A model generated the notes under the pieces. The model did no database searches and was not told the origin of the DNA. It saw only the letters and a program-made list of their open reading frames with translations. This document shows, piece by piece, positions 29,684-58,836 of a stretch of DNA of 64,000 nt (its first letter is position 1; every line of letters starts with the position of its first letter). The stretch spans positions 143,456 through 207,455 of the forward strand of contig SCUM01000001.1 in the NCBI GenBank assembly GCA_004297215.1. The letters are read 5' to 3'. The stretch comes from Patescibacteria group bacterium (lineage in GTDB: Bacteria > Patescibacteriota > Patescibacteriia > UBA9934 > GWF2-40-263). A program made the position numbers and the translations under genes.

Positions 29684-29718
29684 GGGCCTTGTCCGCCTGA
29701 GGCCTTCACGCCTGCGCC
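29684..29718. repeat. Dispersed repeat family copy a (GGCCTTGTCCGCC...TGAGGCCTTCACGCCT)
   Basis: Shares the CCTGAGGCCTTCACGCCT core with copies at 33648, 36139 and 58771. Its first half is the reverse complement of GGCGGACAAGGCC. Confidence 0.6.
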
Positions 29719-29789
29719 GTCCACAATAAAAGAGCCCCCGGTCGCGACAGATGTCGCTTCCAGGGGCCGTGCTGCCTGTGACGTGCTAC

Positions 29790-30986
29790 CTAGTGCACCG
29801 TCGGAGGCTTCTCGGCCTCTGTGACGGGAGGTGCGGACTCGGCACCGTCCCCCGTGTCGAACCCCGCGAGATCGGGATCCACGGCCGGTGACGCAGCCGC
29901 CGCCTCTGCGGCTGCCGGCGCTTCGGGCGGAGCTGCTTCTGCCTTCTGCTTCTTCAGCTTCGCCTCGATCTCGCCGATCAGGGCCTTGAGCGCCTCGTAC
30001 TGGTTCACGAGACGCTCGCGAGGCACCCTCATCCCACGATGCTCGAACTCCTTCCGCCTCTTGCCCGGCTCGTAGCGCGAGAGGTTCTTCATGGCCCGCG
30101 CGAGGACCTCATCGGAAACGCCGTGGCCGATGTCGAGCAGGTCCCGGAGCGCCGGACGCGGGAATGCCTCGCCGCCGGCCCTGATCGCATCCTTCACCTC
30201 GATGGCGTCGGAGGCATCAGGCTGCTTCACGAGCGGCACGATATCGGCGATGATCTCGTGCAGCATCTCGCGATGCAGGAACACCGTCATGACGCCCTTG
30301 CAGTGCAGGTCGGCCTCCTTCACCCGCACGACCTTCCCGAACGGGATGAGCGCCACCGCGTCCCGGATGGGCACGTTCTCCTGACCGTACGTCTGCCCAT
30401 GGAACAGGAGCGTCATCTGCGGCGGGCTCTTCGGGTTGAGGTCCTGGAACTCGCCCCGCGCCCGCGCCTCATGCAGGTTGGCCGGGACGGCATACGCCGT
30501 GCTCCAGCCGCGTTTCCAGGCGACCAGCATCTTGCGCGGCTTGCCGTCGGCGTACGTCTCGCCCTTCATGCGCAACTCGCTGGCAAGCAGCACGACCGTC
30601 GGGCATGGGACCCGTGAAAGCACGTACCCGCCGAGCCGGACCAGGGTCCCCGTCTCGTCGATGCGTTGCCTGGCGGCCGTCTCCGTGGCCTCGATGCCGT
30701 AGCAGTGGTCGTCCTTCCTGATCCCGAACGCCTCGTCGTCCGCCTCGGCGACGAAGGTGACGGCCTCGCGCACCGTCACGGTCTCGACCACCTCCATCTT
30801 GGCCTTCTTGTCGTAGTGCTTGCGCTCTTTTTGCACATCGTGAAACATCTCCTCGTCGACGGTGATGGCCTTGATGTACGTCCTCGAACTGAACACGAGG
30901 GTCATCTCCACGATGTAGTCCGGGTTGGAAAGGCCGACGCTGGCGTAAATCTTCCCTTGCTCTTCGAGCTCGTAGGGGAACTTCAT
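29790..30986 (-). CDS. Hypothetical protein (398 aa) with a C-terminal coiled coil and Ala/Pro-rich tail. No recognisable domain.
   Basis: Long ORF with good codon usage. Divergent from the next gene. Confidence 0.5.
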   Translation of the reverse strand: MKFPYELEEQGKIYASVGLSNPDYIVEMTLVFSSRTYIKAITVDEEMFHDVQKERKHYDKKAKMEVVETVTVREAVTFVAEADDEAFGIRKDDHCYGIEATETAARQRIDETGTLVRLGGYVLSRVPCPTVVLLASELRMKGETYADGKPRKMLVAWKRGWSTAYAVPANLHEARARGEFQDLNPKSPPQMTLLFHGQTYGQENVPIRDAVALIPFGKVVRVKEADLHCKGVMTVFLHREMLHEIIADIVPLVKQPDASDAIEVKDAIRAGGEAFPRPALRDLLDIGHGVSDEVLARAMKNLSRYEPGKRRKEFEHRGMRVPRERLVNQYEALKALIGEIEAKLKKQKAEAAPPEAPAAAEAAAASPAVDPDLAGFDTGDGAESAPPVTEAEKPPTVH

Positions 30987-31184
30987 GGCTCAGGCTCCTT
31001 CGCGTCCGTGATCGAGCGCGGCCACCATGGCACACGCTCGCAAGGACTTCGGAAGGTATCAGAAAAACGCGGTCTTGTCAATCTGAACCGACGGAAGGAA
31101 TTCCGAAGGATATTGACGATTTCGAGATTTTTTGCTACGGTCTTGGGTCTACGTCAACCGGTTTTGACAGAGAGGAGGTCTGCC

Positions 31185-32165
31185 GTGGACGAAATCGAAC
31201 GAATCAGTGCGTGCAAGACGATCATTTACTTGCTGATGGGAAAGCAGGTATCGGACGAGAGGCGAAGCGCTGCCGCCGGGCTGCTTCCGGAGGAGGCGTG
31301 GGTTGATACGCTGCTCCTCAACGAAGTCGCCGACCATGAACAGGCGATGGAGAAGGCGAAACGAGCCATCGCCATCATCGTGTGGGCTGGCAAGCTGAAG
31401 GCGGGCAAGGTCCCGCTCACGCCAAAGAATGTTCAGCTCATCGGCGAGAAGCTGGCCGCGGCGGGGTGCGGGGGGGATCTCGAGGCGTGCGAGATCATGG
31501 CGCTCGAGACCATGCTCGCCGAGCCGCCTTCAAAGGAGCCCACGCTTCCCGCCGACGCCCTGGACGACGAGGACGACGATGAGGACGAGTCGGGCGAGGA
31601 CGAGGACGGAGGCGACGATGCGGGTGACGACGCGGACGAGGATGGATCGGACGAGGGCGACGCCGATGATGCGGATGCCTCGACCGCTGACACGTCGACG
31701 CCGCTCACCCAGGCACCGATCGTCACCGGCCTCGGCCGCCGTCCGTCGTCCAGGCACGACAACGGCGACGAGAAGGAACGCGATCGCGTGAAGGACGTGA
31801 AGCAGGACGCCGACAAGCCGGCGAACGGTCCTGCCTACCGGATCTGCGGCGACCTCACGGTCCCGCCGCCCGTGCCCGGCGACCCGTTCTCGTTCCACGA
31901 CGGCGAGCTGTGCCTGAACGAGCGATGGAAGCACCTGCGTTCCATGATCGTCGCGGCCGTCGAGCTGTTCCAGTCGACGGTCGAAGGGGAGCGCGAGGTC
32001 GGCAGGAAGGCCCTGATCGACCTGCCCGCGAATCTCGACAAGCCCGAGTGGAGCGCCTACTACGGCCCGCGCGTGAGTGAGGCGGGGCGGAAGATGCTCA
32101 AGCACGTCTCATCGTGCTTGGACCTCAACCCCGCCCAGCCGGCAGCAGCCGCCCCTGTCATCTGA
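31185..32165 (+). CDS. Hypothetical protein with a long poly-acidic (D/E-rich) linker. GTG start at 31185 after a GAGGAGG SD.
   Basis: SD AGAGGAGG lies 7 nt before the GTG. Low-complexity DDEDDDEDESGEDEDGGDD region. C-terminal globular part with CGDL...C..ERW. Confidence 0.45.
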   Translation: MDEIERISACKTIIYLLMGKQVSDERRSAAAGLLPEEAWVDTLLLNEVADHEQAMEKAKRAIAIIVWAGKLKAGKVPLTPKNVQLIGEKLAAAGCGGDLEACEIMALETMLAEPPSKEPTLPADALDDEDDDEDESGEDEDGGDDAGDDADEDGSDEGDADDADASTADTSTPLTQAPIVTGLGRRPSSRHDNGDEKERDRVKDVKQDADKPANGPAYRICGDLTVPPPVPGDPFSFHDGELCLNERWKHLRSMIVAAVELFQSTVEGEREVGRKALIDLPANLDKPEWSAYYGPRVSEAGRKMLKHVSSCLDLNPAQPAAAAPVI

Positions 32166-32285
32166 CAGCGGGCGGAAGTTCCTTCGCCGCTGATGCGTCT
32201 CAGGATGACCGAACCCTCTGCGGATTCGGTCATTTTTCATTCCATTGACTCGCGAACGGGTTCCCCATATACTTCCGGCGTCTTT

Positions 32286-32555
32286 ATGACGAACGATCAG
32301 GCCTATATCCGGCTTGCCATGCGGATTTTCGCTGATTTCGGCGTCAGTACCGCGGTGCCTGCCGTATTGGCCGCGCTTGGAGGGAAATGGCTGGACGCCC
32401 GGTACGGGACCGCCCCGAAACTTCTCATCGCCTGCCTGGCCGCCGCCCTCGCCCTGACCGCCCTGACGATCGTCCGCAAGGCCCGCCGATACTCGGCCGA
32501 ATACCAGCGCCTGATCGCTTCCGAATCGAAGGCTCCTCCTTCGCCTGAATCCTGA
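32286..32555 (+). CDS. AtpZ/AtpI-like small membrane protein preceding the atp operon
   Basis: Two TM helices, position upstream of atpB. ATG at 32286, inside the track ORF that starts at 32193. Confidence 0.5.
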   Translation: MTNDQAYIRLAMRIFADFGVSTAVPAVLAALGGKWLDARYGTAPKLLIACLAAALALTALTIVRKARRYSAEYQRLIASESKAPPSPES

Positions 32556-32560
32556 ACCTT

Positions 32561-33364
32561 GTGCTCGTTCCTGCCGCCGCAGAACCCATTTTCCACATCG
32601 GGAGCTTCCCGGTCACCAACGCCCTGATCAACGGGTGGATTGCGGCCGGGTTTTTCGTGGGCCTGGCGTTCATGCTGCGCTCGCGCTCGGCGCTCGTGCC
32701 GACGGGGGTCCAGAACGCGGCGGAGACGGTCGTCGAGGCCGCCCTTGGGGAAGTGCAGAAGGTGACGGGCGACCGGGAACGTGCCCTGCGGTTCCTGCCC
32801 ATCGTCGGGACCCTGTTCGTATTCATCCTGTTCTCCAACTGGATCGGCCTGCTTCCGGGCAGCGGTTCCGTCGGGATGTGGCAGGTGCATGGCGGAGAAA
32901 ACCTGCTCGTCCCGGTGATGCGCGCGGCCACGAGCGACCTCAACTTCACGCTCGCGATCGCCCTGTTCGCCGTGCTCGCCTCGCACCTGTTCGGCCTGCG
33001 CGCGGTAGGGCTCGGCACGCACGTCGGCCGATTCATCCAGATCCCCGGCCTCATCAGGTCGTTCTCGAAGGGACCGATGGCCGTGATGGTGGCGCTTATC
33101 GAGTTCGCCGTCGGCTTGCTCGAGATCGTCTCGGAATTCGCCAAGGTCGTGTCGCTGTCCCTGCGCCTGTTCGGCAACGTGTTCGCGGGCGAGGTGCTGC
33201 TCACGGTGATGCTCGGGATCTTCGCCTATGGCCTGCCTATCCCGTTCCTGTTCCTGGAACTCCTGGTCGGCATCATCCAGGCCACGGTGTTCGCCATGCT
33301 GACCCTCGCGTACCTTACGGTGATGACCACGCCGCCCTCGCATGGGGAAGAGGGCGCGCACTGA
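32561..33364 (+). CDS. atpB: F0F1 ATP synthase subunit a
   Basis: SLSLRLFGNVFAGEVLL with the conserved Arg, 5-6 TM. Confidence 0.9.
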   Translation: MLVPAAAEPIFHIGSFPVTNALINGWIAAGFFVGLAFMLRSRSALVPTGVQNAAETVVEAALGEVQKVTGDRERALRFLPIVGTLFVFILFSNWIGLLPGSGSVGMWQVHGGENLLVPVMRAATSDLNFTLAIALFAVLASHLFGLRAVGLGTHVGRFIQIPGLIRSFSKGPMAVMVALIEFAVGLLEIVSEFAKVVSLSLRLFGNVFAGEVLLTVMLGIFAYGLPIPFLFLELLVGIIQATVFAMLTLAYLTVMTTPPSHGEEGAH

Positions 33365-33417
33365 TTGTCGGTTGCCGCCTCTCAACCGAAAACGGCTGGG
33401 AGGCGCTAACTCGATAA

Positions 33418-33647
<230 letters not shown>

Positions 33648-33648
<1 letters not shown>

Positions 33649-33713
33649 GCCGAAGGCCGCAGGCGGACAAGGCCCCAGGGCTGCCCTGAGGCCTTCACGC
33701 CTGAAGCCTTCCA
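33648..33713. repeat. Dispersed repeat family copy b (GGCGGACAAGGCC-CAGGGCTGCCCTG-AGGCCTTCACGCCT)
   Basis: Immediately after the atpE stop. Contains an internal CAGGGC/GCCCTG hairpin. Confidence 0.6.
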
Positions 33714-33726
33714 TCCAAAACCCATT

Positions 33727-34245
33727 ATGTCTGAACCTACCGGCGGACTCGCGACCTTCGGGATCGACGGCCGCATCCTCCTCGCCCAGCTCATCAACTT
33801 CCTGGTGGTGCTGTTCGTGCTCAAGCGGTTCGCTTGGGGGCCGATCGCGGCGCGTCTGGATGCGAGGTCGAAGAAGATCGAGGAGGGGATGAAGGACGCC
33901 GAAGAGGCGGCGAAGCGGCTGAAGTCGGCCGATGCGGAACGCGCGTCGATGCTTTCCGCGACGAGATCGGAAGCGTCGGCCATCGTCGAGAAGGCGCGCG
34001 CGGACTCCGAGGCCATGCGCGCCGAACTCATCGCCAGGGCGAAGGGCGACGTGGAACGCGTCGTCATGGGCGGCAAGGCGCAGCTGAAGGCCGAGCAAGA
34101 GGCGATGAAGGCCGAGCTCAAGCGCGACGTGGCGGAATTCGCGGTGGAGGCGGCCAGGCGCATCCTGGCCGAAGGCGTCAGCAAGGAATCGTCCGAACGC
34201 CTCTCCTCCGAGATGGTCGTGGCGTGGGCCAGGAAGGAGGTATGA
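33727..34245 (+). CDS. atpF: F0F1 ATP synthase subunit b
   Basis: N-terminal TM plus a long charged helix. Confidence 0.85.
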   Translation: MSEPTGGLATFGIDGRILLAQLINFLVVLFVLKRFAWGPIAARLDARSKKIEEGMKDAEEAAKRLKSADAERASMLSATRSEASAIVEKARADSEAMRAELIARAKGDVERVVMGGKAQLKAEQEAMKAELKRDVAEFAVEAARRILAEGVSKESSERLSSEMVVAWARKEV

Positions 34246-34631
34246 AGGCGAACCCCAAACAGCTGGCCGCCACGCTTCTTACGGCGGCCGAAGGGAAGTC
34301 CGGGGCGGCGCTCGACGAGACGGTCTACGCCTTCCTCGAGATGATGCATGGGCGGGGCGAGCTCCATCGGACGCGGGAGGTGATGCGCGCCGTGGACACG
34401 CAGTGGCGCAAGCGCTATGGGGTGTCACGGGTCTCCGTGGAATCCGCGCATGCGCTCCCGGTGAAGGTCCAGCAGGCCGTGGACAAGCTCGCGAAGGGCG
34501 CGGATGTCTTCTTCTCGATAGACCCCTCGCTCATCGGCGGCGCGCGCGTGCGGGTGGACGACCTGGTGATCGACAACACCGTGCTCGGCAGGGCCGACCG
34601 ACTCAAGCGGCAATTGATGGAACGCATCTGA
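34242..34631 (+). CDS. atpH: F0F1 ATP synthase subunit delta (short)
   Basis: ATG overlaps the atpF stop (ATGA). C-terminal [23 protein letters not shown] is the OSCP/delta signature. Confidence 0.8.
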
Positions 34632-34632
34632 T

Positions 34633-36138
34633 ATGGCAACCAAAGCAGACATCCTGAACAGCCTCAAGGAGCAGCTCGCTTCCTTCCAGTCCGGCATGCA
34701 GGAAAGCCAGGTCGGCACGGTGCTCTCCGTCGGGGACGGCGTGGCGCGCCTTTCGGGCCTTTCCAGGCTCCAGGCTTCCGAGATGATCGAGTTCCCGGGA
34801 GGCATCCTGGGCGTCGCCCTCAACCTTGAGGAAGACACGGTGGGCGCCATCGTGATCGGCGACAGTGCGCGCATCAAGGAGGGCGACACGGTGAAGGCGA
34901 CCGGGCGCATCCTCTCGATCCCGATTTCCGATGCCGTGCTCGGGCGCGTCATCGACCCGCTGGGGAACGCCAAGGACGGCAAGGGCGTCATCCGCGCCGC
35001 GCAGTTTTTCCCGATCGAGAAGATCGCCCCGGGCGTGATGACGCGCCGCAGCGTGGGCGTGCCGCTCGCCACCGGCGTGAAGGCGGTCGACGCGCTCATC
35101 CCGATCGGTCGCGGCCAGCGCGAACTCATCATCGGCGACCGCCAGACCGGCAAGACCGCCATCGCGGTCGACGCCATCATCAACCAGAAGGGGACCGGGG
35201 TGAAATGCATCTACGTCGCGATCGGCCAGAAGGAGTCCAAGGTCGCGAAGATCGTGGCCAAGCTCGAGGAGGCCGGAGCGATGGAATACACCACGGTCGT
35301 GGTGGCCGGCGCGTCCGACCCGGCGGCCTACAGCTTCGTGGCGCCCTACTCCGGTTGCGCCATCGGCGAATACTTCATGGCAAAGGGCGAGGACGCGCTC
35401 GTGGTGTACGACGACCTGTCCAAGCACGCCTGGGCCTACCGCGAGATCTCGCTGCTCTTGCGCCGCCCGCCGGGCCGCGAGGCCTACCCGGGCGACGTGT
35501 TCTACCTCCACTCCCGCCTGCTCGAGCGCGCGGCGCGCCTTGACGAGAAGAACGGCGGCGGCTCGCTCACCGCGCTGCCCATCATCGAGACGCAGGCCGG
35601 CGACGTGTCCGCCTACATCCCGACCAACGTGATTTCCATCACGGACGGGCAGATTTACCTCGAGACAGACCTGTTCTACCGCGGCATCCGCCCGGCGCTG
35701 AACGTCGGGTTGTCCGTGTCGCGCGTGGGCTCGGCCGCGCAGACCAAGGCGATGAAGAAGGTGGCCGGCCGCCTGCGCCTGGACCTCGCGCAGTTCCGCG
35801 AGCTCGAGGCGTTCGCGCAGTTCGCCACGGACCTCGATGAGAAGACGCGCAGCCAGATCGAGCGCGGCCGGCGCCTCACCGAGATCCTCAAGCAGCCGCA
35901 ATACCAGCCGATGCCGTTTGAGGAGCAGGTCGCGGTCATCTACGCCGTCACCAACGGCCATTTCGACGCGATCCCCGTGGCCGACATCGCCGAGACGGAA
36001 AAGAAGTTCCACGCGTTCATGCGCTCCTCCGGCGCCAAGGCGCTCGCGGCCCTGCGGGAAAAGAAGGCCATCGACGACGAGGTCGAGGCGGGCCTCAAGG
36101 CGGCGATCGCGGATTTTATTGAAACGCTAAAGGCATGA
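34633..36138 (+). CDS. atpA: F0F1 ATP synthase subunit alpha
   Basis: [10 protein letters not shown]-loop, full-length conservation. Confidence 0.95.
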
Positions 36139-36205
36139 AGGCCGCAGGCAGACAAGGCCGCAGGGAAGCCCTGAGGCCTTCACGCCTAACGCCTTAACGC
36201 CTCCT
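36139..36205. repeat. Dispersed repeat family copy c (GGCAGACAAGGCC-GCAGGGAAGCCCTG-AGGCCTTCACGCCT)
   Basis: Between atpA and atpG. Confidence 0.6.
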
Positions 36206-37123
36206 ATGGCCGTCCAAACCCGTTCAATCAAGCGTCGCCTCAAGTCGGTGCGCAACACGCGCAAGATCACCAAGGCGATGGAACTCGTGGCCGCGAGCAA
36301 GATGCGCAAGGCCGTGAGTTCGGCGTTGGGCAGCCGTCCGTACGCGAAGATCGCCTGGGAGACCGTGCGCTCGATTTCCGAAGTGGTGGACGTGAGCCTG
36401 CACCCGCTGCTCATGCCGCGCGTGGGGAAGCCGGAAAAGGCGCTGCTCGTGCTCATCACCTCCGACCGCGGGCTCGCCGGCGGGTTCAACAGCAACGCCG
36501 TGAAGCATGCCCTGTCCGAAGTCCGCAAGGCCGGCGTCTCGTCCGTGTCGGCCGTGTGCGTGGGACGGCGCGGGGCCGAGGCCGTGAAGCGGGCGGGGTA
36601 TCCGGTGCTCGCGAGCTTCGTGGACGTCACCAACAAGCCCACGTTCCAGGACATCCTGCCCATCGGCAAAGTGGCCGTGGAGGAATACCTGGCAGGGCGG
36701 TGCGACACCGTACTCATCGCGTACACGGATTTCGTGAGCGCCCTCACGCAAAAACCCGCGGTGCTTGAGCTGTTGCCCTTGGTCGATGAGGCGAGGAAGG
36801 CTCCGGGCGGCAAGGCCGCAGGAGAAGCTGAAGCCTTCACGCGTGAGGCCTCGAGGCCTTCCGACTTCACCTTTGAACCCTCACCGCAGGCCGTGCTCGA
36901 CGCGTTGCTCCCGAGGATCGTCGAGGCGATGACCTACCAGGCCGTGCTCGAGTCGGCCGCGAGCGAACACTCGGCCCGCATGATGGCCATGCGCAGCGCC
37001 ACGGACGCCGCTTCCGAAATGATCGACGACCTGAATTTCACCTTCAACCAGGCACGCCAGGCGGGCATCACGCAGGAGATCGCGGAGATATCAAGCGGCA
37101 AAGCCGCCTTGGAAAGCCAATAG
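36206..37123 (+). CDS. atpG: F0F1 ATP synthase subunit gamma (carries a repeat-derived insertion at 36809-36870)
   Basis: MAVQTRSIKRRLKSVRNTRKITKAMELVAASKMRKA N-terminus and C-terminal QAGITQEIAEI. Confidence 0.9.
   Translation: MAVQTRSIKRRLKSVRNTRKITKAMELVAASKMRKAVSSALGSRPYAKIAWETVRSISEVVDVSLHPLLMPRVGKPEKALLVLITSDRGLAGGFNSNAVKHALSEVRKAGVSSVSAVCVGRRGAEAVKRAGYPVLASFVDVTNKPTFQDILPIGKVAVEEYLAGRCDTVLIAYTDFVSALTQKPAVLELLPLVDEARKAPGGKAAGEAEAFTREASRPSDFTFEPSPQAVLDALLPRIVEAMTYQAVLESAASEHSARMMAMRSATDAASEMIDDLNFTFNQARQAGITQEIAEISSGKAALESQ
36809..36870 (+). repeat. Diverged copy d of the dispersed repeat, located in-frame inside atpG
   Basis: CAAGGCCGCAGG...GAAGCCTTCACGC...GAGGCCTCGAGGCCTTCC. It encodes the extra segment GGKAAGEAEAFTREASRPSD between the conserved LLPL and FEPS blocks of gamma. 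Confidence 0.5.
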
Positions 37124-37125
37124 CC

Positions 37126-37180
37126 GTCAGCCATTAGCCATTAGTAATATTTAGCGACTATCCATAAGCTGACGGCTGAC
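37126..37180. other. Long hairpin between atpG and atpD (10-bp stem AGCCGTCAGC/GCTGACGGCT, 35-nt AT-rich loop)
   Basis: Perfect inverted repeat; the loop TAGCCATTAGTAATATTTAGCGACTA is itself palindromic. Confidence 0.5.
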
Positions 37181-37193
37181 GGCTAGTGGCTAA

Positions 37194-38582
<1,389 letters not shown>

Positions 38583-39033: not shown

Positions 39034-39035
39034 AA

Positions 39036-39562: not shown

Positions 39563-39595
39563 CTCGGAGCGGCTCAGCAATGGGCCGCTCTCTTT

Positions 39596-51589: not shown

Positions 51590-51595
51590 TTCGCG

Positions 51596-51624
51596 TTGAC
51601 AACGCAAGGCGTGAACGATAAAAT
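51596..51624 (+). promoter_or_regulatory. Sigma70-like promoter for lysS (TTGACA-17-TAAAAT)
   Basis: -35 TTGACA 51596-51601; 17-nt spacer; -10 TAAAAT 51619-51624. Followed by leader hairpin AATACGGC-GAGATTGA-GCCGTATTTT. Confidence 0.55.
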
Positions 51625-51651
51625 ACGGCGAGATTGAGCCGTATTTTCCGT

Positions 51652-53118
51652 ATGATCGAAGAAGAAGCCGTCCGGCGCGAACGCCTCAAGGTCCTGCGTG
51701 AGGCGGGCGAGGATCCCTATCCGCCCCGCGTCACGCGCACGCATGAGATCGCCTCCTATCTCGCGCGATTCGCGTCGTTCGAGGCGTCTCGTGAACGCGT
51801 CACGCTGGTCGGCCGCATGAAGACCATCCGCAAGCATGGCGGACTCACGTTCGCGCAGCTGGAAGACGGCAGCGGCATCGTGCAGGTGGCGCTGCGCCGC
51901 GACGTGGTCGGGGAAGCGCGCTACGCGTTTTTCCACCAGGTGGCCGACATGGGGGATTTCCTCGAAGCTGCCGGGACGGCATTCGTCACGAGGAAGGGGG
52001 AGAAGTCGCTCGACGTGACCGCCTGGCGCATCATCAGCAAGAGCCTCCTGCCCATGCCGGAAAAATGGCACGGGCTTTCCGACGTCGAGATCCGCTATCG
52101 CAAGCGATACCTCGACCTCATCGCCAATCCGCACGTCCGATCGATCTTCAAGACCCGCGCCACCGTCGTGAAGGCGATGCGCGACTATCTGGACCGACAC
52201 GGGTTCCTCGAAGTGGAGACGCCGGTTCTTCAGGCGGTCCCGGGCGGAGCCGCGGCGCGGCCGTTCGTCACGCACCACCACGCGCTTGACATCGACATGT
52301 ACCTGCGCATCGCGCCGGAGCTCTATCTCAAGCGGCTCGTCACGGGCGGGTACGAACGCGTGTACGAGGTCGCCCGCTGCTTTCGGAACGAGGGGATCGA
52401 CCACGCCCACAATCCCGAGTTCACCCAGATCGAGGCGTACGCGGCGTACATGGATTACGTGGAACTCATGGCGTTCGTGGAAGGGATGGTGTTCGACGTC
52501 GTGAAGGCGTGCGGATTGGATCCGGCTGCCGTCCCGTTCCAAGGGAACGTCCTTGACTTCACTCCGCCCTGGCCGCGCCTCACCTTCCGCGACGCGCTCC
52601 GGCAATTCGCGGACCTCGACATCGAGGCGTTTCCCACGCGCGAGGCGATCGCCAAGGAGGCGCTGCGCCTTGGCGTGCCGGTCGCGACCGCCGACGGCCA
52701 CGCCACCATCATCGACAACGTCTACAAGCACCATGTGCGCACCAAGATCGTCCAGCCGACGTTCCTGATCGATTATCCGGTCGAGATCTCGCCGCTGGCC
52801 AAACGCAAGCCCGAGGATCCGCGATACGTGGAGATGTTCCAGCTTGTCTACGGCCCGGGCGTGGAGAACGTGAAGGCGTTCACTGAGCTCAACGACCCGC
52901 TCGACCAGGAGGAGCGGTTCCGGCAGCAGGACGAGGCGCGCGCGAAGGGTGACGCCGAGGCCCAGCACGGGGACAGCGATTTCGTGGAGGCGCTCAAGCA
53001 CGGCATGCCGCCGACGGCCGGATTCGGCATCGGGATCGACCGCCTCACGGCGACCCTCGCCGACGCGCACGCCCTGAAGGAGGTAATCCTGTTCCCGACC
53101 ATGCGGCCGGAGCATTGA
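51652..53118 (+). CDS. lysS: Lysyl-tRNA synthetase (class II)
   Basis: N-terminal OB domain, class II motifs 1/2/3 (FRNEG, GFGIGIDRL). Confidence 0.9.
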   Translation: MIEEEAVRRERLKVLREAGEDPYPPRVTRTHEIASYLARFASFEASRERVTLVGRMKTIRKHGGLTFAQLEDGSGIVQVALRRDVVGEARYAFFHQVADMGDFLEAAGTAFVTRKGEKSLDVTAWRIISKSLLPMPEKWHGLSDVEIRYRKRYLDLIANPHVRSIFKTRATVVKAMRDYLDRHGFLEVETPVLQAVPGGAAARPFVTHHHALDIDMYLRIAPELYLKRLVTGGYERVYEVARCFRNEGIDHAHNPEFTQIEAYAAYMDYVELMAFVEGMVFDVVKACGLDPAAVPFQGNVLDFTPPWPRLTFRDALRQFADLDIEAFPTREAIAKEALRLGVPVATADGHATIIDNVYKHHVRTKIVQPTFLIDYPVEISPLAKRKPEDPRYVEMFQLVYGPGVENVKAFTELNDPLDQEERFRQQDEARAKGDAEAQHGDSDFVEALKHGMPPTAGFGIGIDRLTATLADAHALKEVILFPTMRPEH

Positions 53119-53124
53119 CCGCCT

Positions 53125-53982
53125 ATGCGCAGCCGGAGGATCAGGTTGTCCGACCGCCTGTCTCGCGACCGTTTCCGGTCGCGACGGTTCGAGAACCCGT
53201 ATTTCCGGCGCACGAAACGGGGAGACCGAAAGGGATGGCTGGTCGGCCTCTGCGTCCTCCTGGCCGTCATGGGCATCCTCGGCGCCGCCGGATACGTGTT
53301 CGCCTCGTCACGGTTCGATATCGGTGACGTTTCCGTCGAAGGATGCAGGACGATCCCGACGGACGCCGTCTCGGCCATCGTGCGGTCGCACATGGATGAG
53401 CGGGTGCTGCTCGTGCTGCACCGGCGTAACCGGTTCCTGTTCGATCCGGCCGTCGTCCGGACCGACATCCAGGCGGCGTTCGACCTGGCATCCCTCGAGA
53501 TCTCGAGGGATGGGGGCCACGTGACGGTCCGGCTCGAGGAAAAGGTGTCCCGGCTCGTCTGGAAAAGCGCGGATGCCCGTTTCCTCGTGGATCGCCAAGG
53601 GACCGTGATCCGCCCGATTGCCGACGGGGAAGACCCATCCGCCGGAGCGGACCGGCCGCTGCCGATGCTCCTGGACGTGAACCGGGGCGCGGCGACCGTC
53701 GGGACGGCCGTGCTGACCCCAGACGAGGTGGACGGGATTTTCGCGTTCCACGAGCAACTCACGCGGTCCGGCATCCTGTTTGGCACCACGCGCGTGGACC
53801 GCCTGGCGGGGAAGTGGGTGAGCGTGGACACCGCGGACGGGTACGGGATCCTGTTCGACCCGCTTTCGGACATCCAGGCGCAGACGGACAACCTCAACGC
53901 GGTCCTGCGCGACCAGGTGAAGGATCCGTCAAAGCTCCAATACATCGACCTGCGATTCGAAGATCACGTCTACTTTAAGTGA
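53125..53982 (+). CDS. ftsQ: FtsQ/DivIB-like cell-division protein (TM plus POTRA)
   Basis: Basic N-terminus, single TM, POTRA-like domain. Confidence 0.5.
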   Translation: MRSRRIRLSDRLSRDRFRSRRFENPYFRRTKRGDRKGWLVGLCVLLAVMGILGAAGYVFASSRFDIGDVSVEGCRTIPTDAVSAIVRSHMDERVLLVLHRRNRFLFDPAVVRTDIQAAFDLASLEISRDGGHVTVRLEEKVSRLVWKSADARFLVDRQGTVIRPIADGEDPSAGADRPLPMLLDVNRGAATVGTAVLTPDEVDGIFAFHEQLTRSGILFGTTRVDRLAGKWVSVDTADGYGILFDPLSDIQAQTDNLNAVLRDQVKDPSKLQYIDLRFEDHVYFK

Positions 53983-53983
53983 T

Positions 53984-55279
53984 ATGGACTACCTTCGATA
54001 CGACGATGGCAACATGTTCTCTTCCGCCAGCGGGGAAGGAGGGGTGCGAACGCACGAGGTGGGCGAACTGCACGATCGGCTTATGGCCGCGCACGCGAGG
54101 CTCGAGGGCCTGCGACGCGACGCGACGCAGGGGTTCATGGACCTGCCGGGCGCCACCGACGGCCTACGGGCGTCGCAAGAGGCGGCGCATCGCGTGACGC
54201 GCGACTTCTCCTGCCTGCTCGTGATCGGCATCGGCGGATCCGACCTCGGCGGGCGCACGCTGGTGCAGGCGCTGGGCGATCGGGAGAAGGGCGTCCCGGT
54301 CAAATTCCTCGCCTCGCCGGATCCTGACGCCGTCGCCCCGATCCTCGACGATCCGGATTTTCTCCGAGACGCCGCCATAAGCGTCGTGTCCAAGTCCGGC
54401 TCCACGCTTGAGACCGCAGCCGTCTTCTTCGCCGTGCGCGACGCGCTCATCCGCGCCGTGGGCGAAAAAAACCACGCTCGGCACGTCTTCGTGACGACGG
54501 ACCCCACGGACGGTCCGCTGCATCGCCTCGCGAAGGAACGAGGATATGGAATCCTCCCGCACCCGCTCAACGTCGGGGGACGGTTCTCCCTGTTCTCCCC
54601 GGTCGGACTGTTTCCGGCCCTGTGCGCCGGAGCGGACGGCAACGGCGTGCTGGAGGGCGCCCGCTGGCTCGAGGATCATCGGCGCGAGAAGGGGCCGGAT
54701 TCGATGCCGGCGCGGTTCGCGGCGCTGCAGTATCTCGCCATGACCGCAAGGTCGCAGCCGATTCACGTGCTCATGCCGTATGCGGCCCGCCTCCAGGCGT
54801 TCGCCTCATGGTACAGGCAGCTGTGGGCGGAATCCCTCGGCAAGCGCAAGGGGAACCGCGGCGTCGGTCCCACCCCGGTCGCTGCCCAGGGACCGGTCGA
54901 CCAGCATTCCCAGGTCCAGCTGTATGCAGAGGGGCCCAGGGACAAGACGGTCACGTTCATCGAGACGGGACGGTTCCGCCGCGACGTGCGCGTGCCGGCG
55001 GATCTCCCGGACCCCTTCGGCTACCTTTCGGGAAAACCCTTCGACGAATTGCTGAGAGCAGAGCGTGGAGGGACGGCCGAGTCACTCGCGCACGCCGGAC
55101 GGCCGAACGGGACCTTGCACATCCCGTCGATAGAGGCAGGTCCGGTCGGAGCCCTCGCCCAGTTCTTCATGACCGCGACGGCCTATATGGGCGAACTGAT
55201 GGGCGTGGACGCGTATGACCAGCCGGGCGTAGAAGCGGGCAAGATGGCCGCACGTCACATCATCGAAGGGATCCTATGA
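53984..55279 (+). CDS. pgi: Glucose-6-phosphate isomerase
   Basis: SIS motifs VIGIGGSDLG, SKSGSTLET. Bacterial/archaeal short PGI. Confidence 0.85.
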   Translation: MDYLRYDDGNMFSSASGEGGVRTHEVGELHDRLMAAHARLEGLRRDATQGFMDLPGATDGLRASQEAAHRVTRDFSCLLVIGIGGSDLGGRTLVQALGDREKGVPVKFLASPDPDAVAPILDDPDFLRDAAISVVSKSGSTLETAAVFFAVRDALIRAVGEKNHARHVFVTTDPTDGPLHRLAKERGYGILPHPLNVGGRFSLFSPVGLFPALCAGADGNGVLEGARWLEDHRREKGPDSMPARFAALQYLAMTARSQPIHVLMPYAARLQAFASWYRQLWAESLGKRKGNRGVGPTPVAAQGPVDQHSQVQLYAEGPRDKTVTFIETGRFRRDVRVPADLPDPFGYLSGKPFDELLRAERGGTAESLAHAGRPNGTLHIPSIEAGPVGALAQFFMTATAYMGELMGVDAYDQPGVEAGKMAARHIIEGIL

Positions 55280-55692
55280 GATTGACCGTCTTTCGCTCCG
55301 CGGCCGTGATGGCAGGCGTATTCCTGATCCACTTGCTCCTTTCCAGGGCATTTGACATGTACGATCGATTTCCGAATTTCGACATCCCCATGCATTTCAT
55401 CGGCGGATTCGTGGCCGGCATGGTTGGAATCGCCCTGCACGTCAGGCTCTCGGGAAGGGGACACGCGCGAAACGCGTCCTATCCCGTGGCGTACCACGCG
55501 CTGTTCGTCCTTGGCATCGTGATGGCGATCGCCGTCGGTTGGGAATTCCACGAGTTCGTCCTTGACTGGTACAACCGTGAAGACGTCAGTTGGCGCCTGA
55601 CGCAGCCGTCAATCGCCGATACGATGCTCGACCTGCTGATGGGCGCCATCGGGGGACTCATGAGCGTCCTCGCGTTCAGGAAACAACTATAG
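55276..55692 (+). CDS. Hypothetical 4-TM membrane protein
   Basis: ORF plus hydropathy. Confidence 0.4.
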   Translation: MRLTVFRSAAVMAGVFLIHLLLSRAFDMYDRFPNFDIPMHFIGGFVAGMVGIALHVRLSGRGHARNASYPVAYHALFVLGIVMAIAVGWEFHEFVLDWYNREDVSWRLTQPSIADTMLDLLMGAIGGLMSVLAFRKQL

Positions 55693-55763
55693 CGGAGAAC
55701 GGCGGGTTCAGAATCCCTAATGCGTCGTATAAGATATATTGTACGACACATCATCCCTTCCGA

Positions 55764-55979
55764 TCAAAGGGCGGCCAGCAGACTCGTCCCGTACGCAAGC
55801 GCCAGCATCCCTGCCCCGATGAGGAAGACGGAACTGAACACGAACACGAGGACTTGGACCAAGGAATCCTCTTTCGCGACCCCGATGAACATGGTCGCGC
55901 TGATGAACAGGAACAGTCCCAACGGCACGGCGACGAAGAGCCAGCCGACGATTTTCACGATCAAACTGATGGATGGCAT
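55764..55979 (-). CDS. Small 2-TM membrane protein
   Basis: ORF plus hydropathy. Confidence 0.35.
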   Translation of the reverse strand: MPSISLIVKIVGWLFVAVPLGLFLFISATMFIGVAKEDSLVQVLVFVFSSVFLIGAGMLALAYGTSLLAAL

Positions 55980-56028
55980 AACGCCACATTCAAATCGTAA
56001 GGAGGCTTCGTTGTCAAGACGCCCTTCC

Positions 56029-57297
56029 CTACGGTTTCGAGATCATGAAAGGCATCGGGTCCACGGGAATTCCCCCCTTACGGACTTCGAAATGCAGGTG
56101 CGGGCCAGTGGACAGCCCGGCTCCTGACGTCCCCGGCATCCCTCCGGACAGGCCGATCGTCTCTCCGCGAGCCACGAATTGGTCCGCCTTCACCTTCACC
56201 TTGGAAAGGTGGGCGTACAGCGTTGCCAGGCCGTTCCTGTGGATGACCATCACGTAGTTGCCGTACATGCTCCCCACGCGCGTCCAGGCCACATAGCCGG
56301 GAGAAGCGGCCCCGACGGGGGTCCCCTGGGGCTGCGGGATGTCCAGGCCGGAGTGCTCGAATAAACGTCGGAACGGATAGGTCGGGTCATGGAACAGCGT
56401 GGAAATGCCCCGATACCCCGCATCGACGGGCCAGGACATCACGGAACTGTCCCCGACGATATCGGTCGCATCGAGCTTTTCCTGGATATCGCCCTGCAAG
56501 GCGGCGATCTGCTGGGCCACGTACGCCTCTTCCTCGCGCAGGCTTGCGACGATGGCGCGGAATTGCGCTTCCGAGGCCTGGCTTTCGGCCAACAAAGATT
56601 CTTTCGCCCCTTTTTCGAGCTCGAGCTGCCTTCGATTGGCAAGCAGCGTCTCTTGGATCGACGCGAGCCGGGCCCTCTTCCCCTCTTGATCCGTCCGGGC
56701 GACCAGGAGCTGGTCCCGTTCGGCGCGGGCGCGCTCCAGGGCGGAAGCGAGCTCCTCATTCACGTCCGCGAGCTGCTGCAGCCGGTCGAACAGGTCGGCG
56801 ACCGACTCGCTCGAAAAGAGCGCCTGCAGCAACACGTCCCCGTCGGACGAATCCATGGAACGGATCAGTTCGGCCATCAGGAGCTTTTGGCGCTCCAGCT
56901 GGGATTCGTGCGCCCTGACCTGCTTGTCGAGGACCTGCACCTGCGCCGCGACCAGGTCCAGCTCGACCATGTTCCCCTCGATATCGAGTTCGGTCTTCGC
57001 CGCCCGATTCTCAAGAAGGCCGATCTGGTCGTCCAGGCTGGCGGCTTCCGACTCCTTCTTGGCGATTTCCGCCTTATACGCGCTGATCCTGTCGTGCAGG
57101 CCGTCGACGGACGCCTGTTTGTCCTTGATTTGCCCGTTCAGTTGGTTGATTTCGGCCGCGACCGTCGGATCGTCTACCGTGGACGTCTCAAACGTCGCCG
57201 ACCGACCGGTTCCGATACGCAAACACGCGGCGAACGCGAGCGCCGCGAAGACGGATAATCCCGTGAGCTTGATGGAATCCCTCCTGTGACCTGTCAT
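56029..57297 (-). CDS. Coiled-coil M23 (LytM) family peptidase (EnvC-like)
   Basis: Long N-terminal coiled coil plus C-terminal M23 motifs (HxxxD ... GPHLHFEV). Confidence 0.8.
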   Translation of the reverse strand: MTGHRRDSIKLTGLSVFAALAFAACLRIGTGRSATFETSTVDDPTVAAEINQLNGQIKDKQASVDGLHDRISAYKAEIAKKESEAASLDDQIGLLENRAAKTELDIEGNMVELDLVAAQVQVLDKQVRAHESQLERQKLLMAELIRSMDSSDGDVLLQALFSSESVADLFDRLQQLADVNEELASALERARAERDQLLVARTDQEGKRARLASIQETLLANRRQLELEKGAKESLLAESQASEAQFRAIVASLREEEAYVAQQIAALQGDIQEKLDATDIVGDSSVMSWPVDAGYRGISTLFHDPTYPFRRLFEHSGLDIPQPQGTPVGAASPGYVAWTRVGSMYGNYVMVIHRNGLATLYAHLSKVKVKADQFVARGETIGLSGGMPGTSGAGLSTGPHLHFEVRKGGIPVDPMPFMISKP

Positions 57298-58769
57298 GCG
57301 GAAAGTAGGTCAATGGCTTTTTTCAGACGCTGGAGCGTTTCCGCCTTCCCAAGCACCCAGGCGTACTCAAACGGGCTTGGCGACGCGCTGCGGCCGCTCA
57401 GGGCCACGCGCATGGGCCAGAGCATGTTGCCGTTCGACAATCCTTTATCCGCAATATACCGCTTTACGGCCGTTTCTATCAACGCGACGGAAGAGAACTC
57501 GGATTCGGGAAGCGATTCGATGAGCGTTCGCGCCGCGGTCAGGTTTATCAAAGCGTCGGCCTGATCCGCCTTCTTCCAGACGAGCATTCCCGGGTCATAC
57601 GCCGGAAGCTTCGCAAAAGATTCGACGGCGTCGACAATCCCGGCGAGCGTCACGAGTCGATTACGCTCGACCGCGCAGATCTTGAGGAGGGTGTTCGCAT
57701 CAGTCCCCTTCCCTGCGGCGATCAGGAAAGGCAGGCAAAGCGCCATGAGTTCCTCCGGCGACTTGCGACGGATGTATTGGCCATTCATCCAGTCCAGCTT
57801 TTCGGGATTGAAGACGCCTCCTGACGAATTGACCTTCTCCAGTTCAAACCCCGCCTTGAGTTCCTCGATTGAATACAATTCTTGTTCGCCGCTCGGGTTG
57901 AACCCGATGAGCGCCACAAAATTCAGGAGCGCTTGCGGCAAATAACCCTTCGCAAGATAGTCCTCGACCGCGACGTCGCCCTGTCGCTTTGAAAGTTTTG
58001 ATCGGTCAGCGTTCAGGATGAGCGGGAGATGCGCGAACGTCGGCACTGTCCAGCCGAACGCCTTGTAAAGCATCACATGCTTGGGCACGCTTGAAATCCA
58101 TTCCTCGCCACGGATCACATGCGTGACGCCCATCATGTGGTCATCCACGACGTTGGCGAGATGATACGTGGGAAATCCGTCGCTCTTCACGAGCACTTGG
58201 TCGTCCACTTCCCTGTTATCGATCTCGATACGGCCGCGGATGGCATCGTCGATGACTGTCGTCCCTTCGGGGATTTTCAGACGGATCACGAACGGTTCGC
58301 TTGCAGACATCTTTTGCTCAACCTCTTCCTTCGACAGGGAGAGGCAATGCCGATCGTACTTCGTGGTGAGTTTTGCGAGCTCCTGCTGCTTGCGTAGCGA
58401 ATCCAGACGGTCCTTCGAGCAAAAGCAGCGGTAGGCGACCCCCTTTTCGACCAGGATCCGGGCATGGTCATCGTGAATCGCCTTGCGCTCGCTCTGGATA
58501 TACGGCCCGTTTTGTCCCTTCTCGACCACCTTCCCGGACGCATCGAGTACCGGACCTTCGTCATAATCCAATCCTACGGCGGCCATCGTCTTGATAAGGG
58601 CCTCGACCGCGCCAGGAACAAGGCGTTCGCGGTCCGTGTCTTCGATGCGCAGGACGAACTTCCCGCCATGTTTGCGGGCAAACAGCCAGTTATAGAGCGC
58701 CGTGCGCAAGCCGCCGACATGCAGGTAGCCGGTGGGCGACGGCGGAAAGCGGGTGACGATGATCGGCAT
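57294..58769 (-). CDS. gltX: Glutamyl-tRNA synthetase
   Basis: PSPTGYLHVGG (HIGH), KLSKR (KMSKS). Start 4 nt inside the M23 gene end. Confidence 0.9.
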   Translation of the reverse strand: MPIIVTRFPPSPTGYLHVGGLRTALYNWLFARKHGGKFVLRIEDTDRERLVPGAVEALIKTMAAVGLDYDEGPVLDASGKVVEKGQNGPYIQSERKAIHDDHARILVEKGVAYRCFCSKDRLDSLRKQQELAKLTTKYDRHCLSLSKEEVEQKMSASEPFVIRLKIPEGTTVIDDAIRGRIEIDNREVDDQVLVKSDGFPTYHLANVVDDHMMGVTHVIRGEEWISSVPKHVMLYKAFGWTVPTFAHLPLILNADRSKLSKRQGDVAVEDYLAKGYLPQALLNFVALIGFNPSGEQELYSIEELKAGFELEKVNSSGGVFNPEKLDWMNGQYIRRKSPEELMALCLPFLIAAGKGTDANTLLKICAVERNRLVTLAGIVDAVESFAKLPAYDPGMLVWKKADQADALINLTAARTLIESLPESEFSSVALIETAVKRYIADKGLSNGNMLWPMRVALSGRSASPSPFEYAWVLGKAETLQRLKKAIDLLSA

Positions 58770-58770
58770 A

Positions 58771-58836
58771 GGCGGACAAGGCGTTCAGGCATTGACAGGC
58801 CTCGAGGCCTAGGGGCCTGAGGGCCTTTCACGCCAG
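58771..58836. repeat. Dispersed repeat family copy e (GGCGGACAAGGC...GGCCTCGAGGCC...CCTGAGGGCCTTTCACGCC)
   Basis: Between gltX and the WecB-like gene. Confidence 0.55.

What the first reader, a model, noticed from the sequence alone, without database searches (positions are those of the whole stretch)
29684..58836. Dispersed ~60-nt repeat family (5 copies), mostly just after stop codons
Copies at 29684-29718, 33648-33713, 36139-36205, 36809-36870 and 58771-58836 share the modules GGCGGACAAGGCC and CCTGAGGCCTTCACGCCT (copy a has the first module inverted). Several copies carry an internal CAGGG..CCCTG hairpin. Four lie immediately downstream of ORFs (tatD, atpE, atpA, gltX). This resembles a REP/MITE-like or terminator-associated repeat family specific to this genome.
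Basis: seen in the sequence. Interest (0 to 1): 0.55.

Follow-up and report, generated by a model that had tools for sequence, protein, structure and literature searches.

The report
Palindromic repeat family at gene junctions
A small-genome Patescibacteria (Uhrbacteria-like) bacterium carries a family of 60-70-nt hairpin-forming repeats that sit at stop codons between genes, mainly in the ATP synthase operon, with one copy translated inside the gamma subunit gene; it resembles the known REP and Rickettsia palindromic elements but has not, as far as I could find, been described in this phylum.

Summary
The repeat family is real. The 17-mer occurs exactly 3 times. Copies b and c are about 90% identical, and profile and covariance searches recover d and e.

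Each full copy is a 20-24-bp imperfect hairpin. Its 5' arm is (NNNNAGG)n and its 3' arm is (CCTNNNN)n, with a period of 7-8 nt. Copy a is a one-armed tract with no hairpin.

- Copy d lies inside atpG and encodes 15 extra residues in a variable loop.
- Copy e lies upstream of gltX, which is on the minus strand, and supplies the stop codon of a WecG-family gene.

The family is not genome-specific. Related Uhrbacteria carry an orthologous atpE-atpF copy with compensatory changes, and one also has the atpG copy.

Other copies are present in some relatives and absent in others:
- c is absent where atpA and atpG are 3 nt apart.
- e is a clean 62-nt insertion between overlapping genes.
- a is absent in one relative.

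None of the copies is terminator-like, none matches Rfam, and no transposase is encoded in the window.

Best reading: this is a REP/REPIN-like dispersed palindrome that is co-transcribed as an intercistronic stem-loop. The atpE-atpF copy is probably exapted, either as an mRNA stabiliser or as a translational-coupling switch. The genome-wide copy number could not be measured.

The parts
29679..29714 (+). Copy a. A one-armed tract of direct CCT-type units (CCTGAGGG CCTTGTCCG CCTGAGG CCTTCACG CCTG) with no hairpin. The tatD stop codon TGA (29681-29683) lies inside its first CCTGAGG unit.
   Evidence: E 1.4e-4; not significant as a hairpin. An orthologous tract is present in L177 and absent in L175, where the stop codon abuts the conserved downstream hairpin.
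33649..33716 (+). Copy b, in the atpE-atpF spacer. A four-helix hairpin spans 33652-33711. It starts 3 nt after the atpE stop codon (33646-33648) and ends 15 nt before the atpF ATG (33727).
   Evidence: dG -42.9, z -4.5; 90.7 bits. Orthologous copies are in L174, L176, L179, L177 and L175.
36134..36201 (+). Copy c, in the atpA-atpG spacer. The hairpin spans 36137-36195. It overlaps the atpA stop codon (36136-36138) and ends about 10 nt before the atpG ATG (36206). It is 88-90% identical to b.
   Evidence: z -3.4; 80.3 bits. It is absent in L121 (3-nt spacer). L122 has only a right-arm-like 33 nt, and L177 has a different palindrome family at this site.
36793..36858 (+). Copy d, inside atpG and translated in frame (…KAAGEAEAFTREASRP…). 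The 45 nt at 36818-36862 are missing from the closest AtpG homologue. In the window the hairpin is partly decayed.
   Evidence: E 8.6e-6; 21.7 bits. The same copy in L177 atpG (13056-13121) scores 32.9 bits and folds with dG -44.3, z -4.1. It is 94% identical to window d. AF2 places residues 194-224 in a coil with pLDDT below 50 (a low-confidence model).
58771..58832 (+). Copy e. A 62-nt hairpin with the family's outer stem (GGCGGACAAGGC / GCCTTTCACGCC) and a different, longer apex. It lies between a WecG-family gene and gltX, both on the minus strand. It supplies the last ~8 codons and the TAG stop of the WecG-family gene, and it ends 1 nt before the gltX ATG.
   Evidence: z -4.8 and -4.4; E 0.02; E 1.8e-3. 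It is a clean insertion relative to L180, where the two genes overlap (ATGA).

Best explanation
This is a lineage-restricted family of REP/REPIN-like palindromic DNA repeats in a clade of Uhrbacteria-like Patescibacteria.

Anatomy. Each full unit is a 60-70-nt imperfect palindrome. Its 5' arm is built of (NNNNAGG) units and its 3' arm of (CCTNNNN) units, with a period of 7-8 nt.

What is shown:
- Copies are gained and lost at gene junctions.
- They land at or on stop codons, and their CCTGAGG / CCCTAGG motifs can supply the new stop codon.
- They split formerly abutting or overlapping genes.
- One copy sits in frame in a variable loop of the ATP synthase gamma subunit.

What is inferred:
- Spread is by copy-and-paste of the hairpin. 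This could be through a trans-acting single-strand transposase of the RAYT/IS200 kind encoded elsewhere in the genome, or through template switching or gene conversion between copies.
- Because the copies lie inside operons, they are transcribed and form stable stem-loops that begin 0-3 nt after a stop codon and end 10-15 nt before the next start codon.
- The atpE-atpF copy has been kept at the same site, with compensatory changes, across genomes about 80% identical in DNA. It has therefore probably been exapted.
- Its likely role is as a 3' stem-loop that protects the atpE (c-subunit) mRNA segment from 3' exonucleases, and/or as a conformational switch in which the terminating ribosome melts the 5' arm and so controls ribosome access to atpF.
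For: Repeat and structure:
- The repeat is far beyond chance.
- The copies fold as hairpins with z -3.4 to -4.8.
- On a hand-curated alignment of 9 copies, 95.4% of cells are paired and 6 pairs change on both sides. No shuffle of 500 reaches this, and slid controls give 19-50% paired.
- Helix length changes are coordinated on both arms in L179 and L177.

Presence/absence between relatives:
- c is absent in L121, where the atpA-atpG spacer is 3 nt.
- d is absent in L121 and L122 and present in L177.
- a is absent in L175 and present in L177.
- e is a clean 62-nt insertion relative to L180, where the genes overlap.
- L177 has a copy at the metG 3' end that the window and L175 lack.

Orthologous retention of the atpE-atpF copy:
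- It is present in L176 (96.7% identical, against atpF CDS 80.3%), L179, L177 and L175.

Supporting context:
- A second palindrome family (GTAG/CTAC type) also occupies different junctions in the window (26673-26751) and in L177 (atpA-atpG), at 82% identity. Junctions in this clade are therefore repeatedly colonised by palindromes.
- REPs are reported to lie mostly downstream of coding regions and sometimes inside genes (PMC3733652). They are also reported to affect translation of the upstream gene when fewer than 16 nt from its stop codon (PMC12306157, citing its reference 17).
Against: - No transposase of any kind is encoded in the 64-kb window.
- The genome-wide copy number is unknown. Both collection scans returned only chance matches.
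- 4 of the 5 window copies lie within 7.2 kb around the atp operon (simulated P = 0.023). This also fits local duplication rather than transposition.
- The family lacks the GTAG/CGTC tag of classical REPs and is longer than 20-40 bp.
- Both strands fold equally well, so nothing shows that selection acts on the RNA rather than on the DNA.
- The pair counts rest on an alignment I fitted to the structure. Three of the six double changes come from one sequence (L175) whose register is ambiguous.
- No expression data were available.
Confidence: 0.6

Rival explanations
1. It is a dedicated cis-regulatory RNA structure of the ATP synthase operon, such as an intercistronic stabiliser or coupling hairpin. 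It arose once downstream of atpE and was occasionally duplicated nearby. It is not a mobile or selfish repeat.
For: - The atpE-atpF copy is orthologous in five lineages with compensatory changes.
- 3 of the 5 window copies are in the atp operon and 4 of 5 lie within 7.2 kb.
- Every atp spacer of 27 nt or more in the window holds a stable hairpin.
- The distant relative L172 also flanks atpE with long hairpins of unrelated sequence.
Against: - Copies occur at unrelated junctions: tatD 3' end, wecG-gltX, and metG-cvpA in L177.
- One copy is inside a coding sequence.
- Copy c is missing from the closest relatives, so it is not needed for atpA/atpG expression.
- In L177 the atpA-atpG site is occupied by a different palindrome family.
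Confidence: 0.2
2. The copies are intrinsic (Rho-independent) terminators or attenuators that mark operon boundaries.
For: They are GC-rich hairpins placed right after stop codons.
Against: - No T-run follows any copy, and none is reported by the terminator scan, which does find a canonical site downstream of atpC at 39566-39591.
- b, c and d lie between or inside co-oriented atp genes that must be co-expressed.
- tatD already has a separate conserved hairpin (29734-29767) downstream of copy a.
Confidence: 0.05
3. It is a double-stranded DNA motif read by a protein, for example a DNA-uptake sequence, a nucleoid-protein site or a recombinase site. On this reading the hairpin potential is a by-product of inverted pairs of that motif.
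For: - The 7-8-nt CCT/AGG periodicity is about three quarters of a helical turn and recurs in one-armed tracts with no hairpin (copy a; the L122 spacer).
- The two strands fold equally well.
Against: - Only 3 exact 17-mers occur in 64 kb, all within 7 kb. Uptake sequences are typically about one per kb and spread through coding DNA (my own knowledge).
- Compensatory changes and coordinated indels keep the pairing rather than the sequence.
Confidence: 0.07
4. It is a chance resemblance among GC-rich, low-complexity spacers.
For: - The arms are short-period and GC-rich.
- The 17-mer alone has many chance matches in other phyla.
Against: - Shuffle and E-value statistics argue against chance.
- There are 59-nt matches at 90-97% identity.
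- The indel boundaries coincide with element ends.
Confidence: 0.02

Closest known systems
REP / BIME / REPIN elements (repetitive extragenic palindromes of Proteobacteria and other phyla, mobilised by RAYT transposases)
   Same: - They are short imperfect palindromes that lie mostly just downstream of coding regions between co-oriented genes, and occasionally inside genes.
- Several families occur per genome, and some are species-specific while others are shared.
- They are co-transcribed as RNA hairpins (PMC3733652).
- Inverted arms form one long hairpin, as in REPINs (PMC3337134, PMC3116915).
- No target-site duplication is seen at the clean insertion of copy e.
   Different: - There is no unpaired GTAG or CGTC tag.
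- The unit is 60-70 nt rather than 20-40 bp.
- The arms are built of 7-8-nt CCT/AGG units and are not themselves palindromic.
- Only 5 copies are seen in 64 kb, and the genome-wide number is unknown.
- No RAYT was found in the window.
- The host is a Patescibacteria genome on an 842-kb contig. The REP surveys I read do not mention this phylum (PMC12306157 holds no occurrence of 'Patescibacteria').
Rickettsia palindromic elements (RPEs)
   Same: - They are palindromic repeats in a reduced genome that insert in frame into housekeeping genes and add a peptide segment without destroying the gene (PMC10969869).
- Here copy d adds about 15 residues to the AtpG loop, and copies extend or replace the C-termini of TatD, a WecG-family protein and (in L177) MetRS.
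   Different: - RPEs are about 100-150 bp and form Rickettsia-specific sequence families with a conserved encoded peptide.
- Here the unit is 45-66 nt, only one fully internal insertion is known, and most copies are intergenic.
Intercistronic mRNA stem-loops that set subunit ratios (Rhodobacter puf operon hairpin; REP in E. coli malEFG; the atpH-atpA mRNA conformational switch of E. coli). These are cited from my own knowledge, not from a tool result.
   Same: - The stable hairpin sits immediately 3' of the cistron needed in higher amount (atpE encoding c, atpA encoding alpha) and ahead of a lower-stoichiometry cistron (atpF encoding b, atpG encoding gamma).
- The hairpin base lies within the ribosome footprints of both the stop codon and the next start codon.
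   Different: - Function is untested here.
- Hairpins also precede up-steps in stoichiometry (atpB-atpE, atpG-atpD).
- Copy c is dispensable in close relatives.

Membership tests
REP (repetitive extragenic palindrome), as defined in PMC3733652 | Small palindromic unit of 20-40 bp | tested here: not met
   Full copies are 60-70 nt with 20-24 paired positions in four helices. The size is closer to a REP dimer or REPIN.
REP (repetitive extragenic palindrome), as defined in PMC3733652 | Unpaired GTAG or CGTC tag at one end | tested here: not met
   b and L179 have GTAG only because a Leu codon (CTG/TTG) precedes the TAG stop. c, d, e and L175 have no such tag, and there is no CGTC.
REP (repetitive extragenic palindrome), as defined in PMC3733652 | High copy number across the genome | not testable with these tools
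   Only 64 kb of an 842-kb contig is available. It holds 5 copies, and 20.5 kb of L177 holds 4. Window proteins are not in the contig index.
REP (repetitive extragenic palindrome), as defined in PMC3733652 | Located mainly downstream of coding regions, between co-oriented or convergent genes | tested here: met
   a, b, c and e start on or within 3 nt of a stop codon. d is intragenic.
REP/REPIN-RAYT system | A RAYT (Y1 / IS200-like) transposase gene in the genome, flanked by the repeats | not testable with these tools
   No transposase domain was found in any of about 60 window ORFs. The rest of the genome could not be read.
REPIN | [quoted passage not shown] | tested here: inconclusive
   The two arms are inverted copies of a ~28-nt tract made of two 15-nt units, with a 3-4-nt loop. 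However, single arms (copy a, the L122 spacer) are not themselves palindromes.
MITE | Terminal inverted repeats plus a target-site duplication, usually 100-400 bp and derived from an IS | tested here: not met
   At the clean e / L180 junction no duplicated flank is visible. The element is 62 nt and is a palindrome throughout.
Rickettsia palindromic elements | In-frame insertion of a palindromic repeat into protein-coding genes | tested here: met
   Copy d is in frame in atpG. Its 45 nt are absent from L121, and the same copy in L177 is an intact hairpin. This shows similar behaviour, not sequence-family membership.
Intrinsic terminator | GC-rich hairpin followed by a T/U run | tested here: not met
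   No copy appears among the terminator-like sites. The tails are CATCCAAAAC, AACGCCTCCT and similar.
Any curated RNA family (Rfam 15) | Match at the gathering threshold | tested here: not met
   The only match in the window is a tRNA at 1747-1818.

The most novel reading that the evidence does not exclude
The hairpins are the visible part of a translation-linked system peculiar to these Patescibacteria, which use few Shine-Dalgarno (SD) sites.

- The 3' arm is a (CCUNNNN)n tract that often runs up to the start codon. It echoes the strongly enriched CCU-AUG start context: 12 of 53 starts against a 1.1% background.
- The 5' arm is a complementary run of SD-like AGG motifs placed directly after the upstream stop codon.
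- On this reading the element would be a portable 'stop-insulator-start' module. It brings its own stop codon, couples or uncouples neighbouring cistrons through ribosome-driven melting, and spreads by a mechanism not yet described for this phylum.
Probability: 0.12. Interest if true: 0.7.

Novelty: new member of a known kind. Interest (0 to 1): 0.4.

Why it matters
Patescibacteria (CPR) genomes are small and streamlined. Their non-coding DNA, gene-expression signals and mobile DNA are poorly described.

A palindromic repeat family that colonises gene junctions in these genomes shows that REP/RPE-like elements operate in this phylum too. The copies rewrite stop codons and C-termini, split overlapping genes, and sit in frame inside an essential ATP synthase subunit.

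The orthologously conserved atpE-atpF stem-loop gives a concrete, testable candidate for how subunit stoichiometry is set in an operon that has almost no Shine-Dalgarno sites.

Practically, such repeats can break assemblies and mislead gene callers. In this window the 3' ends of tatD and the wecG-family gene lie inside copies, and a different (GTAG-type) palindrome at 26673-26751 obscures the metG start.

Tried and rejected
1. None extends beyond the 17-mer.
It returned 49 loci, all coding-sequence chance matches, with no nhmmer hit.
3. Viral-contig scan with both modules at fixed spacing. It returned 0 hits.
4. Fetching the source contig by exact protein. AtpG, AtpE and P0001 are not in the index. 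Only a 1.6-kb Logan contig of the same organism was found (L174).
5. Rfam at the gathering threshold. It found only a tRNA.
6. Terminator scan. No copy was flagged.
7. Strand asymmetry through G-U pairs or folding energy. There is none, so RNA-level and DNA-level selection cannot be separated.
8. Pfam scan of about 60 window ORFs for a transposase. None was found.
9. The plain MAFFT alignment of copies mis-registers the apex of L179 and L177. I replaced it with a hand-curated alignment padded with N.
10. The integron attC idea. The RYYYAAC-like GCCTAAC occurs in copy c only, and the flanking genes are core genes, so I dropped it.
11. The AF2 model of AtpG is of low overall confidence (mean pLDDT 59). 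I use it only as weak support that the insertion lies in a non-regular loop.

Full report
**Source and context.** The window comes from a Patescibacteria (CPR) MAG. Its AtpG and AtpF are 100% identical to NCBI proteins TAK03707.1 and TAK03704.1, labelled 'Patescibacteria group bacterium', on a contig of 842,311 bp. The nearest named relatives are Candidatus Uhrbacteria. The region holding four of the five copies reads metG, cvpA, tatD, two unannotated genes, then the atp operon: atpI-like, atpB, atpE, atpF, atpH, atpA, atpG, atpD, atpC. The fifth copy lies between a WecG-family glycosyltransferase gene and gltX, both on the minus strand.

**Checking the observation.**
- The 17-mer CCTGAGGCCTTCACGCC occurs three times exactly. 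With up to 3 mismatches there are 8 matches against 0.38 expected.
- Copies b and c are 90% identical over 59 nt.
- An nhmmer profile of b+c recovers d (E 8.6e-6), a (E 1.4e-4) and e (E 0.02).
- A covariance model built from five clear copies gives b 90.7 bits, c 80.3, d 21.7 and e 19.1. Copy a is not significant because it has no second arm.
- Two statements about context are wrong. Copy e is upstream of gltX and overlaps the 3' end of the WecG-family gene, and copy d lies inside atpG.

**Anatomy.** A full copy is a long imperfect hairpin of four helices:
- GAAGGC/GCCTTC
- CAGGCG/CGCCTG
- AAGGCC/GGCCTT
- CAGGG/CCCTG

The helices are separated by small internal loops and capped by a 3-4-nt loop. 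The folding energy is dG -42.9 (z -4.5) for b and -39.4 (z -3.4) for c. The arms are periodic. CCT recurs every 7-8 nt on the 3' arm, and AGG recurs at the same spacing on the 5' arm. A 15-nt double unit, CCTGAGGCCTTCACG, can therefore be read two to three times. Copy a, and the atpA-atpG spacer of relative L122, are one-armed: direct CCT-type units only, with no hairpin. Copy e keeps the outer stem but has a longer apex with its own AGGCC/GGCCT hairpin.

**Related genomes.** I fetched neighbourhoods of close homologues of AtpG, AtpF and the WecG-family protein.

The atpE-atpF spacer carries an orthologous copy in several relatives:
- L176 is 96.7% identical to b and differs only in the loop, while the atpF coding sequence is 80% identical.
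- L179 is 83% identical and L177 (Ca. Uhrbacteria RIFCSPHIGHO2_01_FULL_63_20) is 82% identical.
- L175 has a shorter variant.

The differences keep the pairing:
- G-C changes to A-U in the apical helix of L175 and to C-G in the L177 atpG copy.
- A-U changes to G-C in L177.
- L179 and L177 have an extra base pair added on both arms of helix 3 and one removed from helix 4.

On a hand-curated alignment of nine copies, 95.4% of cells pair and 6 pairs change on both sides. None of 500 shuffles reaches this, and sliding the partner columns drops pairing to 19-50%. Two caveats apply. I fitted the alignment to the structure, and three of the double changes come from L175, whose register is ambiguous.

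**Gains and losses.**
- Copy c is absent from the closest AtpG relative, L121, where atpA and atpG are 3 nt apart. L122 has only a right-arm-like 33 nt. L177 has a different palindrome at that site.
- Copy d corresponds to 45 nt (15 residues) missing from L121 and L122. It is present, 94% identical and as an intact hairpin (dG -44.3, z -4.1), in the same loop of L177 atpG.
- Copy a has a counterpart after tatD in L177 but not in L175, where the stop codon abuts the conserved downstream hairpin.
- Copy e is a clean 61-62-nt insertion relative to L180, where the two genes overlap by ATGA. In the window the element supplies the last ~8 codons and the TAG of the WecG-family gene and ends 1 nt before the gltX ATG. 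No target-site duplication is visible.
- L177 has a further copy at the metG 3' end. MetRS reads into the left arm and stops at the element's TGA. The window and L175 lack this copy.
- The TGA of CCTGAGG serves as the stop codon of tatD (window and L177), metG (L177) and atpA (L122).

**Other palindromes at the same kind of site.** A second family, rich in GTAG/CTAC, lies at 26673-26751 in the window (TP_methylase-metG junction). It is 82% identical to the atpA-atpG spacer of L177. Related tracts fill atpG-atpD in L122 and L177, atpH-atpA in L179 and metG-cvpA in L175. In the window every atp spacer of 27 nt or more holds a stable hairpin. The atpB-atpE hairpin is conserved with compensatory changes in L175, L176 and L177. 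Gene junctions in this clade are therefore repeatedly occupied by short-period palindromes of several families.

**What it is not.**
- No copy matches an Rfam family.
- None is terminator-like, whereas a canonical terminator is found downstream of atpC.
- No transposase domain occurs in about 60 window ORFs.
- The two strands fold equally well, so RNA-level and DNA-level constraint cannot be separated.
- Scans of the genome, metagenome and viral collections gave only chance matches or nothing. The genome-wide copy number remains unknown. Within the window, 4 of 5 copies fall within 7.2 kb (P = 0.023 by simulation).

**Interpretation.**

Shown:
- The family is a repeated palindrome.
- The copies are gained and lost at gene junctions.
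- They overlap and donate stop codons.
- One copy is tolerated in frame in a loop of AtpG. AF2 leaves this loop as low-confidence coil (residues 194-224; the model is poor overall).
- One site, atpE-atpF, is retained with its structure across the clade.

Inferred:
- The family spreads like REP/REPIN elements, either through a trans-acting single-strand transposase encoded elsewhere or through template switching or gene conversion.
- It is co-transcribed, and the atpE-atpF copy is exapted.
- Two non-exclusive roles fit its position, 3 nt after the atpE stop and 15 nt before the atpF start. The first is a 3' stem-loop protecting the atpE segment. The second is ribosome-driven melting that gates initiation at atpF.
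- REPs within 15 nt of a stop codon are reported to affect translation of the upstream gene (PMC12306157, citing its reference 17). REPs are reported downstream of genes, and sometimes inside them, in many phyla (PMC3733652). In-frame palindromic insertions are the hallmark of Rickettsia RPEs (PMC10969869).

**Comparison and novelty.** The element behaves like a REP/REPIN and, for copy d, like an RPE. It fails two defining REP features, size and the GTAG/CGTC tag. Copy number and a RAYT gene could not be tested. I therefore file it as a new member of the known kind 'small dispersed palindromic repeats', not as a member of any named family. My literature searches found no description of such elements in CPR/Patescibacteria, but the searches were not exhaustive.

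**Verdict.** It is a neat, testable case in an under-studied phylum, but of a familiar kind.

Noticed in passing
window 26673-26751; L177 12403-12464: A second palindrome family built of GTAG/CTAC units (AGTGCGTAGTGAGTAGTTGGTAGTACGTAG / CTACGCACTACCACCTACCAACTACGCACT) sits at the TP_methylase-metG junction. It is 82% identical to the atpA-atpG spacer of relative L177. Related tracts are in L122 atpG-atpD, L177 atpG-atpD, L179 atpH-atpA and L175 metG-cvpA. The real metG start is probably near 26755, not 26689.
   Followed up: partly
window 33365-33417: The atpB-atpE spacer holds a different hairpin (GGTTGCCGCCTCTCA…TGGGAGGCGCTAACT). It is conserved at the same site in L175, L176 and L177 with compensatory changes (CCTCTCA/TGGGAGG to CGTCTCA/TGGGACG). 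It is a candidate conserved RNA structure with no Rfam match.
   Followed up: partly
window 37124-37208: The atpG-atpD spacer is a third palindrome type (GCCGTCAGCCATTAGCC … GGCTGACGGCTGACGGC), with z -4.3. The same spacer is 4 nt in L121 and holds a GTAG-type palindrome in L122.
   Followed up: partly
window, predicted gene starts (e.g. 22201, 33430, 36206, 45043, 53125, 58769(-), 62555): 12 of 53 predicted start codons are directly preceded by CCT, against 1.1% of all ATG/GTG (binomial p about 8e-13). Few genes have a recognisable Shine-Dalgarno site; the clearest are at cvpA (28276) and at 1955. The same CCT-ATG context is seen in relatives L121 and L122. Starts were taken as the first in-frame start codon, so the count is approximate.
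   Followed up: partly
window 1358-1420 and 1664-1726; tRNA 1747-1818: Two copies of a 63-nt, 92% identical, partly palindromic repeat lie just upstream of the only tRNA gene in the window. The tRNA is next to the low-GC island.
   Followed up: no
window 1955-7278: A low-GC island (0.48-0.55, against about 0.64 elsewhere) encodes a ThsB-like TIR protein, an N6/N4 DNA methylase and a ResIII-type helicase/restriction subunit. It is probably an acquired defence/restriction island beside the tRNA.
   Followed up: partly
window 29734-29767: A hairpin (GCCCCCGGTCGCGACAGATGTCGCTTCCAGGGGC) lies between convergent tatD and the downstream minus-strand ORF. It is conserved almost base for base in L175 and is preceded by an A-run. 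It is a likely bidirectional terminator and is distinct from copy a.
   Followed up: partly
window 32166-32192: A 27-nt near-perfect palindrome (CAGCGGGCGGAAGTTCCTTCGCCGCTG) fills the spacer just upstream of the atpI-like gene.
   Followed up: no
window 30666-32165 (incl. 31550-31632): A 499-aa ORF with no Pfam match contains an acidic GAC/GAG-rich repeat stretch. It overlaps the 5' part of the 398-aa minus-strand ORF 29790-30986, so one of the two gene models must be shorter. Syntenic unannotated genes exist in L172, L175 and L177.
   Followed up: no
L172 6960-7075 and 7295-7508: In a more distant Uhrbacteria relative (AtpG 64% identical), atpE is flanked by very long hairpins of unrelated sequence: 116 nt (dG -61.9) and 214 nt (dG -105). 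Hairpins on both sides of atpE may be a wider feature of the group.
   Followed up: partly
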